The position numbers were made by a program, and so were the translations under genes. Below the pieces are notes generated by a model. The model was given only the letters and a program-made list of their open reading frames with translations, had not been told where the DNA came from and made no database searches. A stretch of DNA of 64,000 nucleotides from an uncultured virus (IMG/VR IMGVR_UViG_3300025084_000015) (lineage: Duplodnaviria; Heunggongvirae; Uroviricota; Caudoviricetes): the IMG/VR virus record IMGVR_UViG_3300025084_000015; one strand, written 5' to 3'. Shown here in pieces: positions 1,949 to 47,606 of the stretch (within the stretch, counting starts at the first letter, position 1; every line of letters starts with the position of its first letter).

Positions 1949-2098
1949 CTAAAAAGGTTTATGCTCCTTAATATACTTAGTGCACGTTTTAGTACCTTTT
2001 TCGTCGTATTCAAACCACCATTCTTCGGTATATCCAAATCTTCGGACAATTCTGTATGTGATGCGACCTAAGTCGTCTAAGTGAAAATTTTCAAACAT
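1949..2098 (-). CDS. Small hypothetical protein (49 aa)
   Basis: Read manually: MFENFHLDDLGRITYRIVRRFGYTEEWWFEYDEKGTKTCTKYIKEHKPF. Confidence 0.5.
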   Translation of the reverse strand: MFENFHLDDLGRITYRIVRRFGYTEEWWFEYDEKGTKTCTKYIKEHKPF

Positions 2099-2101
2099 AA
2101 T

Positions 2102-17579: not shown

Positions 17580-17633
17580 AGTTTTCTGTTTGTTATGGAT
17601 ATATTCTACCATAAAAACTAACCATTGTAAATA

Positions 17634-23623: not shown

Positions 23624-24163
23624 TTAATTCAATTCATCAGCTAATGCATCATTAATTGCTTTATGAATTTCAGATGTTTTAGAATCGATGTATACCTTAT
23701 TACCAGATTTTCTCTTCATAATTCGTACTTTAGTTCCTTTGCCGTGATATTTTTTCTTAAGCTCTTTTGCTTTTTCATCATCGGCTGTAACAATTGTACG
23801 TGTGTCTGTTTTATAGTCAACAGCAGGAGCAGCTTTCTTTGGAGGATACTCTTTATTGATAAACTCTTCGACAGCTTTAGCAACGTCAGCAACTGTCATT
23901 TTGTCATCAAATCTAACAATCGTTTTGCTTGAATCAGAATCTACAAGGTCTGAATTTCCATCAACATAAACATCAAATTTTTTCTGAGCGTGATCAGATA
24001 GCAGTTTCTTTATTGCCCTCCTAAAAGCTTTAACTTCTTTAAAAGATGCACCGAACGCAAAATAACTTATGGTTTTACCATCTCTGTTTTTTCCTTTAAC
24101 AAAAACTTTATCGTTTGGTCTAACTGCTTCATCAACCTGAGACTCAGATTCTACTTTATCTTT
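23624..24163 (-). CDS. In-frame continuation of 24164..25327 beyond a single TGA (readthrough extension or broken gene)
   Basis: 180 codons open in the same frame; first start codon only at 23899; begins KDKVESESQVDEA, the same linker type as upstream. Confidence 0.6.
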   Translation of the reverse strand, partial: KDKVESESQVDEAVRPNDKVFVKGKNRDGKTISYFAFGASFKEVKAFRRAIKKLLSDHAQKKFDVYVDGNSDLVDSDSSKTIVRFDDKMTVADVAKAVEEFINKEYPPKKAAPAVDYKTDTRTIVTADDEKAKELKKKYHGKGTKVRIMKRKSGNKVYIDSKTSEIHKAINDALADELN

Positions 24164-25327
24164 TCAACTGTTAGATTCTTCAATATCGCTTTCAACAATA
24201 TCGTTCATTTTATCCTTAAGTTGATCAATACGTGTTTTATATCCATCAATTTTGTCATCAAGTGCTTTAGCAGCTTTTGAGTCTTTTTCGACATCTCTTT
24301 TTTTCTTTTGAGCTTTACTCTTTTTATCTAAAATGTCATTAATTTTTTTCTTTATTTCAAGTTTTTTTCCTCGTACGTCTAACTTGTGTTTTTTGTCAGC
24401 ACGATCTTGTCTTCCGGATTTAGTAACACGACTTTTTACAGCCTTGCCTAAAGCCTTAGCTCCTTTTTTAAGCAATCCACCAATAAGCTCATCGATTTGT
24501 TCTTCAGAAAGTCCTTTTATAGCTTCTTCGATAGCCTTTCCAGGATTGGCCGATTCCTCAATAAATCCTGCAAGGAATCCGTCATCCTGCCAACCTTTAG
24601 GATCTTTTAAAATGCCTTCTAGGTCTTTCTTTTTACCAGTAAGCCTAACCAATGGCATTCCACCGCCAGGGCCTTTCATTGTTATAATTCTTCCTTTAAC
24701 ACGATACTTTTTCATCAGCTTTGCAAATTCAATTGATTTTGGATCGGCAGTATCAACGTCAATATATGCTTCATCAAGATCGACTGATTCGTCAACATTA
24801 GTTGACTCACTCTGGCCGTACTGAAACTCAATTTCTTCCCAAACAGAAATGACTTTATCGATAGCTTTCGTCATATCCTTAAAGTCACCATCGTACTTTC
24901 CTCCAAGTGCTTTGTTAACACCCTTATTTACCGCTGATCCGACTTTTAGTTGTTTCTCTAAAGCATAAATGCGTTCACCTGCCATTTTTACGCCTGAGCT
25001 CATGGTAGCTTCATCAAGCTCTGTTGACTCACCAAGGATTTTCTTGGCTACTTCAACATCCATTTCAGTAGGGAATTTCTTACCGTCAAATTCAAACTCG
25101 TCATCACCAGCAACTGCGGCTTTTGCGGCAGCTTTAGTAAATTCATTTGCTTCGTCAATATCTTTTTCCGTAAGAGGAGTTGAGCCACGACGCTTTCCTT
25201 TATCAATCGAATGAAGATCGACAAAGTCTTTGTCTGAAGGCTGAACCTCAGTTTCTTTTACTTTTTTATTTTCAAGTACTTCTTTTGCCGCGTTGGCAAT
25301 TTTTTTCGTTAAATCGTCTTGGTACAT
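24164..25327 (-). CDS. Modular late head-associated protein
   Basis: TATAAATA at 25340..25333; ES..(L/I)DEA linkers; shares a domain with 61453..62511. Confidence 0.7.
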   Translation of the reverse strand: MYQDDLTKKIANAAKEVLENKKVKETEVQPSDKDFVDLHSIDKGKRRGSTPLTEKDIDEANEFTKAAAKAAVAGDDEFEFDGKKFPTEMDVEVAKKILGESTELDEATMSSGVKMAGERIYALEKQLKVGSAVNKGVNKALGGKYDGDFKDMTKAIDKVISVWEEIEFQYGQSESTNVDESVDLDEAYIDVDTADPKSIEFAKLMKKYRVKGRIITMKGPGGGMPLVRLTGKKKDLEGILKDPKGWQDDGFLAGFIEESANPGKAIEEAIKGLSEEQIDELIGGLLKKGAKALGKAVKSRVTKSGRQDRADKKHKLDVRGKKLEIKKKINDILDKKSKAQKKKRDVEKDSKAAKALDDKIDGYKTRIDQLKDKMNDIVESDIEESNS

Positions 25328-41268: not shown

Positions 41269-41333
41269 TGTGGTAGTCTTTTTTGATTCTGAATATATTC
41301 TACCATAAAAAATGGCAGTTGTAAATACTTTTT

Positions 41334-41543: not shown

Positions 41544-41627
41544 AATATATTTTTTTTACTCCCACCTAGCCTCCCCCTTTCAGGTTGTAGGCGTGAAGTC
41601 TTTGACGCCTCGTTAATTGCTAGGAGC

Positions 41628-41751
41628 AGGCCCGGGCAGGATTCGAACCTGCATTCCCTCTATAGACGCTAGCTAGCGCGCATCACAGTAAAGTGCACTT
41701 TACTGATTTGGGTATAATATAGATGGGTCTTACCTGTTAAATGACCGGGCC
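41628..41751 (-). ncRNA. tRNA-like RNA A (124 nt) with expanded anticodon arm
   Basis: Acceptor GGCCCGG/CCGGGCC, D loop with GG, T arm GCAGG TTCGAAT CCTGC; 53-nt insert in place of anticodon loop. Confidence 0.7.
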
Positions 41752-42313: not shown

Positions 42314-42553
42314 TTAGCTGTAGAGTTTAGCGAGATCATTTGGGACAACATCCTTACCTCTGTAAATAGCTTGCTTAAGTTTAGTCTGATGCTTCCATAA
42401 GCTATCAAGCTGATCATTAAGATCAGCACAACCGCTACAAGCTCTATCACTATCTAATGCTTCAAGAACCTTAAGCTTATCAGTAAAGCAGTTCATAAGC
42501 TCATCCATATGCTCCAACACTTGCTTCTTCTGCTCGTTATTATTTTCTTTCAT
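42314..42553 (-). CDS. Hypothetical early protein (CxxC)
   Basis: First ORF after promoter cassette at 42560..42680. Confidence 0.55.
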   Translation of the reverse strand: MKENNNEQKKQVLEHMDELMNCFTDKLKVLEALDSDRACSGCADLNDQLDSLWKHQTKLKQAIYRGKDVVPNDLAKLYS

Positions 42554-42559
42554 AACTAA

Positions 42560-42680
42560 TATACTTTCTTCCTTGATTCTGATTATATTCTACCACACGA
42601 TGGGTAGTTTGTAAATACTTTTTTTACTAAAAATAGGCTTTTTTTGGTGTTCATCTGATTACTGGTGTTCATCTGATTAC
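42560..42680 (-). promoter_or_regulatory. Repeated early promoter cassette with 18-bp tandem repeat of degenerate TGTTC-N4-GAACA box
   Basis: TTTACA 42615..42610, TAGAAT 42592..42587; TGTTC-ATCT-GATTA at 42648..42661 and 42666..42679. Confidence 0.75.
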
Positions 42681-42691
42681 TTATGGGAAAT

Positions 42692-42805
42692 TGGCTGCTC
42701 TAAAAGGAATTGCACCTTTATTTTTCTCGCCCGAACCATTGGGGTTTCGGTGACTTATGGTTGAAGAGGTCGTGGAGAATGTTTTACTTTTTAAACTATA
42801 GAGCT
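42692..42805 (-). ncRNA. tRNA-like RNA B (114 nt) with expanded anticodon arm and encoded CCA
   Basis: GCTCTA/TAGAGC acceptor, D stem GTTT/AAAC, TTCTC/GAGAA stem with 46-nt insert, T arm AAAGG TGCAATT CCTTT, 3' GCCA; own promoter upstream, no ORF. Confidence 0.65.
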
Positions 42806-42814
42806 TTTATTAAG

Positions 42815-42914
42815 GGGTTTTCCTTGATTCTGATTATATTCTACCACAAAAAATGACCACTGTAAATACTTTTTTACTAAATAATAGCACTTTTTTTAAT
42901 TTGTATTACAGATT
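42815..42914 (-). promoter_or_regulatory. Repeated early promoter cassette driving tRNA-like RNA B
   Basis: TTTACA 42866..42861, TAGAAT 42843..42838; near-palindrome AATCTGTAATACAAATT 42914..42898. Confidence 0.75.
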
Positions 42915-47114: not shown

Positions 47115-47522
47115 TTAGTCATCAATTTTAAATGATTTTGGTTTTTTATCTTCAGGAATTGATTTCTCTAAAAACACAGATAGAATTCCATCAGTGAGAG
47201 ATACCTTTGAAACTTCAATGTATTCACCTAACGTAAACGTTTTATTGAATTTACGTGTTGCAATTCCTTTATGAATATATTCTTTATTGCCGTTTAAATC
47301 AACATCTTTAGATGCGACGGAAAGAACATTTTCCTCTTGTTCAACGAATAAATCACTCTTACTAAATCCAGCGACTGCAATAGCAATTTCAAAGCTATCT
47401 TCATCGTGTTTCACCACGTTGTGTGGTGGATAAGTTGGTTGTTTTGAACTCAATTTTTCGATTCGGTCAAAGACGGAATCGAACCCGACTGTCCACGCGT
47501 GTGGAATATTGTATGTTGTCAT
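47115..47522 (-). CDS. hsp20: Small heat-shock protein Hsp20
   Basis: VGFD, YPPHNV, IAVAGF, YIHKGIATRKF, DGILSV; start MTTY with AAGGAG upstream. Confidence 0.93.
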   Translation of the reverse strand: MTTYNIPHAWTVGFDSVFDRIEKLSSKQPTYPPHNVVKHDEDSFEIAIAVAGFSKSDLFVEQEENVLSVASKDVDLNGNKEYIHKGIATRKFNKTFTLGEYIEVSKVSLTDGILSVFLEKSIPEDKKPKSFKIDD

Positions 47523-47606
47523 TTTTTTTATCTCCTTATTTAAGCGAGTTAATGTTGTGGACTCCTTTCGGACATCCGATTTGAAAAGCTTCGTGCTTTT
47601 CAAAAG

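What the first reader, a model, noticed from the sequence alone, without database searches (positions are those of the whole stretch)
42692..42805. tRNA-shaped RNA B with its own early promoter and 46-nt anticodon insert
Seen: a full promoter cassette (42815..42914) is followed by no ORF but by AGCTCTA-TA-GTTT-AAAAAGTA-AAAC-A-TTCTC-[46 nt]-GAGAA-AAAT-AAAGG-TGCAATT-CCTTT-TAGAGCA-G-CCA. All tRNA arms have correct spacing, CCA is encoded, but position 1:72 is mismatched, the D loop lacks GG, and the anticodon loop is a 46-nt insert with alternative pairings (AACCAT/ATGGTT or CCGAA/TTCGG). Unrelated in sequence to RNA A 1 kb away yet same architecture, suggesting a functional class rather than decay. 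The insert contains CTTCAAC (UCA would read UGA), noted only as speculation given the in-frame UGA at 24164.
Basis: partly seen in the sequence, partly recalled or inferred. Interest (0 to 1): 0.78.

Follow-up and report, generated by a model that had tools for sequence, protein, structure and literature searches.

The report
Phage tRNA-framed small RNA family
This is a real, conserved gene of uncultured marine T4-like phages for a 114-base RNA that looks like a transfer RNA, except that a small two-pronged fork replaces the decoding loop; it is probably a stable helper RNA, not a decoder, and its job is unknown.

Summary
Window 42692-42805 (minus strand) folds as a full cloverleaf with an encoded CCA. 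It scores 38.7 bits on Rfam tRNA (gathering score 29), with 46 nt where the 7-nt anticodon loop should be.

It is not a decayed copy. I collected 76 hits (36 distinct sequences) from marine viral and metagenome contigs.
- No homologue without the insert turned up.
- The RNA stays 82-100% identical where both flanks are at random level.
- 47 of 49 distinct upstream contexts carry a sigma-70-type -10 box at a fixed distance.
- Three base pairs show compensatory changes.

The insert folds into a near-invariant hairpin H2 and a variable hairpin H1. Position 1:72 is never paired. No constant anticodon can be read, so it is not an ordinary or simply intron-bearing tRNA.

A UGA-suppressor role is not supported, although the in-frame UGA at 24164 is real and conserved in relatives.

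My best reading is a natural "tRNA scaffold": a promoter-driven RNA, presumably matured by RNase P, that displays the fork in trans, most likely as a decoy for a tRNA-binding host factor. That mechanism is inferred.

The family is absent from Rfam and from 50,697 GenBank phage records. This scan has noted other tRNA-shaped phage RNAs on other DNA. No transcript data were obtainable.

The parts
42692..42805 (-). RNA B, a 114-nt tRNA-framed RNA running from A1 at 42805 to the encoded CCA at 42694-42692
   Evidence: Rfam tRNA 38.7 bits. Own covariance model R1 scores 140 bits. MFE fold.
42799..42805 (-). Acceptor stem, 5' strand. A1 is unpaired opposite A72; pairs 2-7 are invariant in the family.
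   Evidence: Pairs 2-7 are paired in 35 of 35 scorable distinct rows. The 72-73 dinucleotide is GA 21, CG 7, AG 6, AA 1 of 35, and position 72 is never U.
42781..42796 (-). D arm: a 4-bp stem and an 8-nt loop with a single G and no GG
   Evidence: Pair 12:23 is U-A in 23 and C-G in 13 distinct sequences, with no half-changed forms.
42775..42779 (-). Anticodon-stem equivalent, 5' strand (TTCTC)
   Evidence: 96% of cells are paired with 42724-42728.
42729..42774 (-). 46-nt insert in place of the anticodon loop: junction CAC, hairpin H1, A, hairpin H2, junction GC
42752..42771 (-). H1, the variable hairpin: a 3-bp closing stem GAC/GTC around a 14-nt loop (42755-42768) that contains CTTCAAC
   Evidence: The middle pair is A-U in 26 and G-C in 10 distinct sequences. 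There are 15 distinct loops of 13 to 39 nt in the family.
42731..42750 (-). H2, the near-invariant hairpin: 7 bp with one bulged base and a 5-nt loop CCAAT
   Evidence: 100% of cells are paired. One pair is C-G in 23 and U-A in 12 distinct sequences.
42724..42728 (-). Anticodon-stem equivalent, 3' strand (GAGAA)
42703..42719 (-). T arm: a 5-bp stem and the loop TGCAATT, which has G at position 55 where tRNAs have U
   Evidence: The window's four ordinary tRNAs have canonical TTCGA/TTCAA loops.
42692..42702 (-). Acceptor stem 3' strand, discriminator G73 and the encoded CCA
   Evidence: CCA is present in 34 of 35 distinct full-length family members.
42838..42866 (-). Promoter of RNA B: TTTACA, a 17-nt spacer, then TG-n-TAGAAT. 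This implies a leader of about 26 nt.
   Evidence: It lies within a cassette whose 28-nt core is repeated exactly.
42646..42691 (-). 3' trailer: ATTTCCC, conserved as ATTTYCC in the family, followed by two tandem 18-nt repeats
   Evidence: All 40 distinct downstream contexts begin with ATTT.
42587..42615 (-). Second copy of the promoter, driving the 79-aa ORF 42314-42553

Best explanation
RNA B is a working gene for a tRNA-framed small RNA, in effect a natural 'tRNA scaffold'. It is transcribed from its own sigma-70-type (early-type) promoter with a short leader. The acceptor, D and T parts make it look like a pre-tRNA, so host RNase P would cut the leader and host 3' trimming would stop at the encoded CCA. 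The result would be a compact, nuclease-resistant RNA of about 114 nt. The decoding loop is replaced by a Y-shaped module: a constant hairpin H2, probably a protein-binding handle, and a fast-changing hairpin H1, probably a specificity element. The unpaired 1:72 position and the non-canonical elbow (no GG in the D loop, G55 in the T loop) argue that it is not handed to the ribosome as an ordinary elongator tRNA. I think it most likely acts in trans early in infection as a decoy or sponge for a host factor that binds tRNA, such as a tRNA-directed defence or quality-control protein. This would parallel the tag-less mini-tmRNA genes that sit beside it in most related phages.

Shown here: the fold, conservation, covariation, promoter linkage, accessory and mobile status, and the absence of a readable anticodon.

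Inferred: transcription, RNase P/CCA maturation, stability, action in trans, and the decoy role.

Odds: about 0.75 that it is a functional non-decoding tRNA-framed RNA, and about 0.3 that the decoy mechanism is correct.
For: Cloverleaf: Rfam tRNA 38.7 bits. Six relatives folded separately all give the cloverleaf plus H2, and five of the six also give the H1 closing stem.

Family size: 76 model hits and 36 distinct sequences in 76 sources.

The insert is always present:
- All 18 viral stretches found with the 3' half belong to insert-bearing family members.
- Of 63 metagenome stretches found with the 5' half, 61 are full-length with the insert, 1 is cut by a contig end, and 1 diverges 29 nt in, close to a contig end.

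Structure: 99.2% of cells are paired, against 34-55% when partners are slid. There are three compensatory pairs (D stem, H1, H2) with no half-changed intermediates.

Selection: in 436 pairs of like-length RNAs whose flanks are at shuffle-level identity (baseline 0.61), the RNA is 82-100% identical, mean 89%.

Promoter: a TATAAT or TATACT box lies 13-15 nt before position 1 in 46 distinct upstream contexts and 27 nt before it in 1 (the window), out of 49. Most have a TTG-type -35 box 17 nt further upstream.

Accessory status: a phage whose primase is 99% identical lacks RNA B, the second promoter and the 79-aa ORF. None of the 22 other primase loci searched has RNA B.

No anticodon: the bases next to the stem vary or covary as stem partners.

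Position 72 is A, G or C but never U.

A tmRNA-like 65-66-nt gene lies 0.25-2.4 kb from RNA B in 8 of 10 relatives' loci.

Precedents from papers, passages read:
- Engineered tRNAs whose anticodon stem-loop is replaced by a foreign RNA are recognised, precisely processed and stable in E. coli (PMC3753655).
- A tRNA-like-domain-only tmRNA is thought to titrate SmpB (PMC4131195).
Against: There is no expression evidence. The two RNA runs laid did not cover RNA B.

Folding energy alone is unremarkable (z -1.71).

The family is shallow, at about 89% identity. Only 3 of 30 pairs covary, and much of the conservation could reflect recent spread of a mobile cassette.

No binding partner, target or host is known.

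In most relatives an ORF starts within about 13-60 nt after the CCA with no promoter in between. A role in cis for the downstream mRNA is therefore not excluded.

The neighbouring genes give no functional hint. They are small ORFs without PHROG matches and an endolysin.
Confidence: 0.55

Rival explanations
1. It is a cis-acting leader or processing module. The promoter plus RNA B would form a mobile 5' cassette whose tRNA-like fold serves the downstream mRNA, either by defining its 5' end through tRNA-type processing or by protecting it. Trans activity would be absent or secondary.
For: All 40 distinct downstream contexts start with the conserved ATTT trailer, and in most an ATG follows within a few tens of bases. 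The promoter and RNA travel together in front of many different ORFs. Promoter plus stem-loop cassettes are known shuffling units in T4-type phages (PMC2839356, abstract read).
Against: In the window, RNA B is followed by a second complete promoter before the next ORF, so the ORF does not need it. A pure processing signal would not need an invariant H2, a covarying H1 stem, a conserved D arm or a never-paired 1:72.
Confidence: 0.12
2. It is an antisense regulator. The single-stranded H1 loop, displayed on the tRNA frame, would base-pair with a phage or host RNA, for example a translation start region. Different H1 versions would aim at different targets.
For: H1 is the only strongly variable part, with 15 loops among 36 distinct sequences. 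One contig carries two copies with different H1. The loop of one relative (L129) is complementary over 14 of 14 bases to window 2087-2100 (minus), which is the start codon region of the 49-aa ORF 1949-2098. None of 200 shuffled loops reaches this.
Against: The window's own loop has no target in its 64 kb beyond chance: the best match is a 10-mer, and 98 of 200 shuffled loops do as well. In three phage records of 43-67 kb I found only the gene itself or 2-mismatch hits. Only G002 carries the loop type that was searched in it; the type-e loop searched in G003 and G004 is not their own loop. I tested 15 loops, so one 14-mer hit is only weakly significant. The hairpin-type H1 versions have little single-stranded loop.
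Confidence: 0.12
3. It is a real decoding tRNA interrupted by a short non-self-splicing intervening sequence. Unknown nuclease and ligase activities would remove it. One possible reading is a Pro(CGG)-type loop TTCGGGC left after a 39-nt insert is removed between positions 31 and 32.
For: The tRNA body is complete and CCA is encoded. The last 7 nt before the 3' stem strand have the form Y-U-NNN-G-N. From memory, G72/A73, present in 21 of 35 distinct sequences, resembles proline identity. ARAGORN with introns calls one variant Pro(cgg). Earlier notes of this scan report short unexplained inserts in other phage tRNA genes.
Against: The would-be anticodon switches CGG/CAG together with its stem partner and without any change in the body, and some members lack a base of that loop. 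The acceptor-end types (AG, GA, CG, AA) do not track it. ARAGORN -i fails on 34 of 36. At 46 nt the insert is too short for a group I intron, and no Rfam intron or ribozyme family matches. No RNA ligase or kinase was found among the 75 window proteins scanned, though the window is only part of the genome. CCG and CUG codons should be rare in a 35% GC phage (inference).
Confidence: 0.07
4. It is a UGA-reading adaptor. The UCA or CCA triplet in the H1 loop would let RNA B promote read-through of the in-frame UGA in the phage gene at 24164.
For: The UGA is real. ORF 24164-25327 continues open for 88 codons without a start codon. The stop sits in a conserved ESN[S/G]-TGA-KDK module in three diverged relatives, while other relatives have the two halves fused without it. 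Several H1 loops read CTTCAAC or CTCCAAT, which from memory resemble Trp or opal-suppressor anticodon loops.
Against: The triplet is in a 13-14-nt loop on a 3-bp stem beyond a three-way junction, not at the tip of a 5-bp anticodon stem. By established ribosome geometry the anticodon-to-CCA distance would be wrong (inference). 33 of 76 hits have a closed hairpin there with no such triplet. I could not test co-occurrence with the TGA module because the contigs are fragments.
Confidence: 0.03
5. It is a decaying tRNA pseudogene disrupted by an insertion.
For: ARAGORN does not call it. The D loop, T loop and 1:72 position are non-canonical.
Against: No insert-free relative was found. Conservation is far above the flanks, substitutions are compensatory, and a promoter sits at a fixed distance in 47 of 49 contexts.
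Confidence: 0.03

Closest known systems
Phage T4 RNAC and RNAD (species 1 and 2 stable RNAs of the T4 tRNA cluster)
   Same: They are small stable RNAs of T4-type phages with tRNA-like parts. RNAC has a canonical T arm and an acceptor-like stem. Their function was still called unknown in 2022 (PMC9697503, passage read).
   Different: I detected no sequence relationship: model R1 gives 10.5 bits (E 0.28) on RNAC and nothing on RNAD. The T4 RNAs lie inside the tRNA cluster and are reported as late RNAs. RNA B has its own sigma-70-type promoter, a complete cloverleaf with D and anticodon stems, and a forked insert.
Engineered 'tRNA scaffold' RNAs (PMC3753655)
   Same: The design is the same: acceptor, D and T arms are kept and the anticodon stem-loop is replaced by a structured RNA. 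In E. coli such chimeras are recognised, precisely processed and protected (passages read).
   Different: Those are man-made. RNA B would be a natural counterpart, and its processing has not been shown.
tRNA-like-domain-only (tag-less) tmRNA, as in mycobacteriophage DS6A (PMC4131195)
   Same: It is a phage-encoded tRNA mimic lacking a decoding function and thought to titrate a host factor (passage read). Genes of this type lie next to RNA B in 8 of 10 relatives' loci.
   Different: RNA B has C3:G70 and not the G3:U70 alanine mark. It keeps the D and anticodon stems. It scores on the tRNA model, not the tmRNA model.
Bacterial Y RNA-like YrlA (tRNA-mimicking module; recalled, no paper read here)
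   Same: It is a non-decoding RNA with a tRNA-like elbow, used as a handle by cellular enzymes.
   Different: The topology is permuted: in YrlA the ends lie in the Ro-binding stem and the acceptor-like stem is closed. No Rfam Y RNA family matched.
Promoter-early stem-loop (PeSL) cassettes of T4-type phages (PMC2839356)
   Same: RNA B sits in a repeated promoter cassette and is present or absent between near-identical phages, as PeSL-bounded modules are (abstract read).
   Different: PeSL modules were described as carrying small ORFs. Here the cargo is an RNA gene.

Membership tests
Decoding tRNA (Rfam RF00005) | Cloverleaf with acceptor, D, anticodon and T stems of standard spacing | tested here: met
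   38.7 bits against a gathering score of 29, model positions 1-71. 99.2% of cells are paired in the family.
Decoding tRNA (Rfam RF00005) | 7-nt anticodon loop with U33 and a constant anticodon | tested here: not met
   46-71 nt occupy the loop position. The stem-proximal bases vary or covary as stem partners.
Decoding tRNA (Rfam RF00005) | Canonical elbow (G18-G19 in the D loop, U54-U55-C56 in the T loop) and a paired 1:72 | tested here: not met
   The D loop has one G, the T loop has G55, and position 72 is A, G or C opposite A1 in 35 of 35 distinct sequences. The window's four ordinary tRNAs are canonical.
Decoding tRNA (Rfam RF00005) | Aminoacylation and use on the ribosome | not testable with these tools
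   This needs charging and decoding assays.
Intron-bearing tRNA (group I, or protein-spliced) | After removal of one contiguous segment, a standard loop with the same anticodon across homologues | tested here: not met
The CGG/CAG switch occurs with an unchanged body.
Intron-bearing tRNA (group I, or protein-spliced) | Self-splicing core or a known ribozyme in the insert | tested here: not met
   The insert is 46 nt. No Rfam intron or ribozyme family matched at E up to 10 in 4 kb.
Intron-bearing tRNA (group I, or protein-spliced) | Spliced product in RNA | tested here: inconclusive
   The RNA runs laid did not cover the gene.
tmRNA or tRNA-like-domain-only tmRNA | G3:U70 alanine identity, no anticodon stem, match to the tmRNA model | tested here: not met
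   RNA B has C3:G70 and D and anticodon stems are present. The best clan match is tRNA. True mini-tmRNAs nearby in relatives score 43-54 bits on RF00023.
T4 RNAC/RNAD | Sequence or structure homology to the T4 genes | tested here: not met
   R1 with filters off on the T4 tRNA region gives 10.5 bits (E 0.28) on RNAC, nothing on RNAD, and 19-32 bits on ordinary tRNAs.
PeSL-type mobile promoter cassette | Repeated strong sigma-70-like promoter units that bound modules present or absent between close relatives | tested here: met
   There are 4 copies in the window and an exact 28-mer on both sides of RNA B. The module is absent in a phage whose primase is 99% identical. Terminator activity of the associated palindrome was not tested.

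The most novel reading that the evidence does not exclude
RNA B, the neighbouring mini-tmRNAs and RNA A may form a phage toolkit of tRNA-framed RNAs. In this reading, nature uses the tRNA body as a processing and stability scaffold to display small evolvable modules. RNA B's constant hairpin would dock a protein. Its fast-changing hairpin and its 72/73 positions would be in an arms race with a tRNA-directed host defence or translation-control factor, which the RNA would neutralise as a decoy.
Probability: 0.25. Interest if true: 0.8.

Novelty: new variant of a known kind. Interest (0 to 1): 0.55.

Why it matters
Phage tRNA-like stable RNAs have been known since T4's RNAC and RNAD and are still without a function. 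This family is conserved, promoter-equipped and accessory. In one marine DNA run its summed contig depth is 15-50 times that of its flanks, which suggests that many phage genotypes share it, although summed contig depth is a crude measure.

Its clear division of labour (constant frame, constant hairpin, variable hairpin) makes it an experimentally approachable model for what such RNAs do. If it is a decoy for a tRNA-binding defence or quality-control factor, it would add an RNA-based class to phage counter-defence. It would also be a natural precedent for the engineered tRNA scaffold.

In practice, standard tRNA finders and the default Rfam scan both miss it, so such genes are probably under-annotated in phage genomes.

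Tried and rejected
- Expression. One run search found 20 runs holding the stretch, only one on record as RNA (share 0.06). Laying two RNA and two DNA runs gave no RNA cover over RNA B, so nothing can be said about transcription, ends or splicing.
- Own assembly. It is not held. The nearest record, G001, is identical here and adds nothing independent.
- GenBank phages. The 601-nt query found no match.
- Bacterial and archaeal genomes. The H2-plus-stem pattern and a gapped insert-free pattern each gave 0 hits. These are exact-pattern searches, so diverged relatives would be missed.
- Synteny. RNA B is not linked to primase outside the near-identical contig.
- Neighbouring proteins. They were uninformative: an endolysin and small ORFs without PHROG matches. 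A Pfam scan failed on a frame error in one reference and I did not repeat it, so there are no Pfam results.
- Antisense targets. I searched for targets of H1 in the window and in three phage records. I found only one notable hit, and that was for a different phage's loop. Three large records could not be searched because they are not held.
- Hammerhead-like or other ribozyme motifs. I rejected these by eye, because the GAAA in H2 is not conserved: the bulged base is A or C. Rfam also gave no hits.
- A three-codon mini-ORF ending in UAA in some H1 loops. I considered this as a tmRNA-like message and dropped it, because other H1 types lack it.
- Literature. Searches for a described equivalent found none. 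These searches cover open-access papers and bioRxiv only. I did not open the supplements of PMC10690425 (10,006 candidate viral RNAs), and they could contain this motif.

Full report
**1. What is there**

It has these parts:
- a 7-position acceptor stem whose first position is A opposite A;
- a D arm with an A-rich loop holding a single G;
- a 5-bp stem TTCTC/GAGAA enclosing 46 nt;
- a 4-nt variable loop;
- a T arm with the loop TGCAATT;
- G73 and an encoded CCA.

ARAGORN lists four ordinary tRNAs in the window and not this one. The default Rfam scan also lists only those four. With permissive filters, the Rfam tRNA model matches end to end at 38.7 bits (gathering score 29), with a 45-nt insertion at the anticodon loop (E 7.8e-6 in 4 kb, E 1.2e-4 in the whole window).

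The unconstrained MFE structure is the cloverleaf with two hairpins inside the insert. The energy is not striking (z -1.71; 15 of 200 shuffles fold as well).

**2. Context**

The window is the replication and head-gene region of a T4-type phage. It encodes portal, prohead protease, scaffold, major head protein, UvsY, UvsW-type helicase, late sigma factor, gp46/47-type nuclease, clamp and clamp loader, RegA-type repressor, family B polymerase, primase, helicase, UvsX, NrdAB, PhoH and Hsp20. The polymerase is at most 48% identical to anything among 50,697 GenBank phage records. The RNA B region has no match there. All relatives come from marine metagenomes.

RNA B lies just downstream of the primase gene, behind a TTTACA-17-TAGAAT promoter with an upstream TG. 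That promoter type occurs four times in the window. A 28-nt part of it is repeated exactly on both sides of RNA B. No minus-strand ORF of 40 aa or more fills the gap.

A phage whose primase is 99% identical has a single promoter copy followed directly by the homologue of the next-but-one small ORF. RNA B, the second promoter and the 79-aa ORF 42314-42553 are all missing there. None of the 22 other primase loci searched holds RNA B. RNA B is therefore an accessory module in a promoter-bounded, shuffled region. This is the situation described for PeSL cassettes of T4-type phages (PMC2839356, abstract).

**3. The family**

Exact or lightly degenerate patterns from three parts of the RNA retrieved:
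- 12 viral stretches with the 5' half;
- 17 viral stretches with the H2 part;
- 18 viral stretches with the 3' half;
- 63 metagenome stretches with the 5' half.

A covariance model built from nine distinct sequences found 76 hits in 76 sources, giving 36 distinct sequences. One contig holds two copies with different H1.

All 18 stretches found through the 3' half belong to family members that carry the insert. Of the 63 found through the 5' half, 61 are full-length with the insert, one is cut by its contig end, and one diverges 29 nt in, close to a contig end. No insert-free relative turned up in the bacterial and archaeal genome collection, and neither did the family itself (exact patterns only).

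**4. Structure support**

On the 36 distinct sequences, 99.2% of pair cells are standard pairs, against 34-55% when the 3' partners are slid by 1-3 columns. Three pairs change on both sides with no half-changed intermediates:
- D stem 12:23, U-A in 23 and C-G in 13;
- the middle pair of H1, A-U in 26 and G-C in 10;
- the second pair of H2, C-G in 23 and U-A in 12.

The alignment was fitted to the model and the family is shallow, so this is moderate and not overwhelming evidence. Six relatives folded one by one, without constraints, all give the cloverleaf plus H2, and five of the six also give the H1 closing stem.

**5. Selection and promoter**

Among 1275 pairs of loci, 536 have both flanks at the identity of shuffled sequence (baseline 0.61). 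In the 436 of these with RNAs of like length, the RNA is 82-100% identical, mean 89%.

Of 49 distinct upstream contexts, 46 have TATAAT or TATACT ending 13-15 nt before position 1, and one (the window) 27 nt before it. Most have a TTG-type hexamer 17 nt further upstream. The RNA thus nearly always brings, or is given, its own sigma-70-type promoter, with a leader of a few to about 26 nt.

All 40 distinct downstream contexts begin with ATTT, usually ATTTYCC, and most run into an ORF within tens of bases.

**6. Anatomy of the insert**

The order is: stem, 3-nt junction, H1, one A, H2, 1-2 nt, stem.

H2 has 7 bp with a bulged A or C and a loop C-N-A-A-T. It is almost invariant.

H1 has a 3-bp closing stem and 15 different interiors:
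- 13-14-nt open loops that differ by point changes;
- 16-nt versions that close into a 4-bp stem with a tetraloop;
- 39-nt versions with an extra hairpin.

The acceptor end also varies. Positions 72-73 are GA (21), CG (7), AG (6) or AA (1) of 35, so A1 never finds a U.

**7. Why it is not a decoder**

- The bases next to the 5' stem strand vary (CAC, CGC, CAA, and GAC or GGC). The last of these is an H1 stem partner.
- The bases before the 3' stem strand are the H2 3' strand. They switch CGG/CAG together with their partner, and some members lack one base there.
It is CCA in some members and absent in the hairpin-type H1 of 33 of 76 hits.
- No ribozyme or intron family matches.

**8. The UGA**

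ORF 24164-25327 ends in TGA, and the frame stays open for 88 further codons without a start codon. Relatives exist with the two halves fused (P0003 and L151). Three diverged relatives keep the stop inside a conserved nine-codon module, ESN[S/G]-TGA-KDK. This looks like a conserved recoding or split site and deserves its own study. Nothing I found links it to RNA B.

**9. Companions**

In 8 of 10 relatives' loci a 65-66-nt gene matching the two ends of the tmRNA model lies 0.25-2.4 kb from RNA B on the same strand. One example shows the G3:U70 acceptor stem. The window itself has none.

RNA A (41624-41751, minus) folds with an acceptor stem, a T arm and a long arm ending in two hairpins. These phages therefore carry several tRNA-framed RNAs.

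Notes from this scan on other DNA report the mini-tmRNAs, a 153-nt tRNA-shaped RNA and palindrome-bounded cassettes. I used them as leads only.

**10. Mechanism**

Engineered tRNAs whose anticodon arm is replaced by a foreign RNA are recognised, precisely processed and protected in E. coli (PMC3753655). A tRNA-like-domain-only tmRNA is thought to act by titrating SmpB (PMC4131195).

By analogy, I propose that RNA B is matured like a tRNA and acts in trans through its fork, most likely as a decoy for a tRNA-binding host factor. The variable H1 and the 72/73 positions would be the parts under conflict.

This is inference. The cis-leader, antisense and intron readings remain open at lower odds.

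**11. Comparison and novelty**

T4 RNAC and RNAD are the nearest natural analogues. Their function was still called unknown in 2022 (PMC9697503). They are not homologous by my model.

I found no paper describing this family. I did not open the supplements of the large viral RNA catalogue PMC10690425.

I rate it a new variant of a known kind, namely phage tRNA-like stable RNAs, and of moderate interest.

Noticed in passing
window 23624-25327 (-), stop at 24164-24166: An in-frame TGA splits a 567-codon frame, and 88 codons stay open after it with no start codon. The stop sits in a nine-codon module, ESN[S/G]-TGA-KDK, that is conserved in three diverged relatives (L152-L154). Other relatives (L151, P0003) have the halves fused without it. 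This is a candidate programmed read-through or split site.
   Followed up: partly
window 41624-41751 (-): RNA A has a 7-bp acceptor stem, a canonical T arm (GGTTCGAATCC type), no encoded CCA, no predicted D stem and a long arm ending in two hairpins. Its z-score is -3.16 and 0 of 200 shuffles fold as well. It was found only in this phage's contig.
   Followed up: partly
L063:2801-2865 and seven other loci (L047, L048, L049, L051, L053, L060, L062): 65-66-nt tag-less mini-tmRNA genes (Rfam tmRNA 43-54 bits, G3:U70 acceptor stem) lie 0.25-2.4 kb from RNA B in 8 of 10 relatives' loci. In L063 the upstream ORF's stop codon lies inside the RNA's first bases. None was found in the window.
   Followed up: partly
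window 2087-2100 (-), start of ORF 1949-2098: The H1 loop of the RNA B variant in L129 is complementary over 14 of 14 bases to this start-codon region. None of 200 shuffled loops matches as well, but I tested 15 loops.
   Followed up: partly
window 42646-42681 (-): Two tandem copies of an 18-nt unit lie directly after RNA B's trailer. Related 'GAACACC-A-run-palindrome' sequences precede other promoter copies, for example near 1900-1950.
   Followed up: no
window 17602-17633, 41296-41327, 42586-42617, 42837-42868 (-): There are four copies of one strong sigma-70-type promoter cassette. Together with an upstream palindrome they resemble PeSL shuffling units. One module (RNA B plus a 79-aa ORF) is absent from a near-identical phage (L014).
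   Followed up: partly
window 47517-47577 (-): A weak match to the ROSE_3 RNA thermometer family (29.5 bits, below the gathering score of 43; E 0.044) lies at the 5' end of the phage Hsp20 gene (47115-47603). ROSE elements control small heat-shock genes.
   Followed up: no
L062 (contig IMGVR_UViG_3300025086_005389): This contig holds two RNA B paralogues about 700 nt apart, one with the 14-nt H1 loop and one with the 39-nt H1.
   Followed up: no
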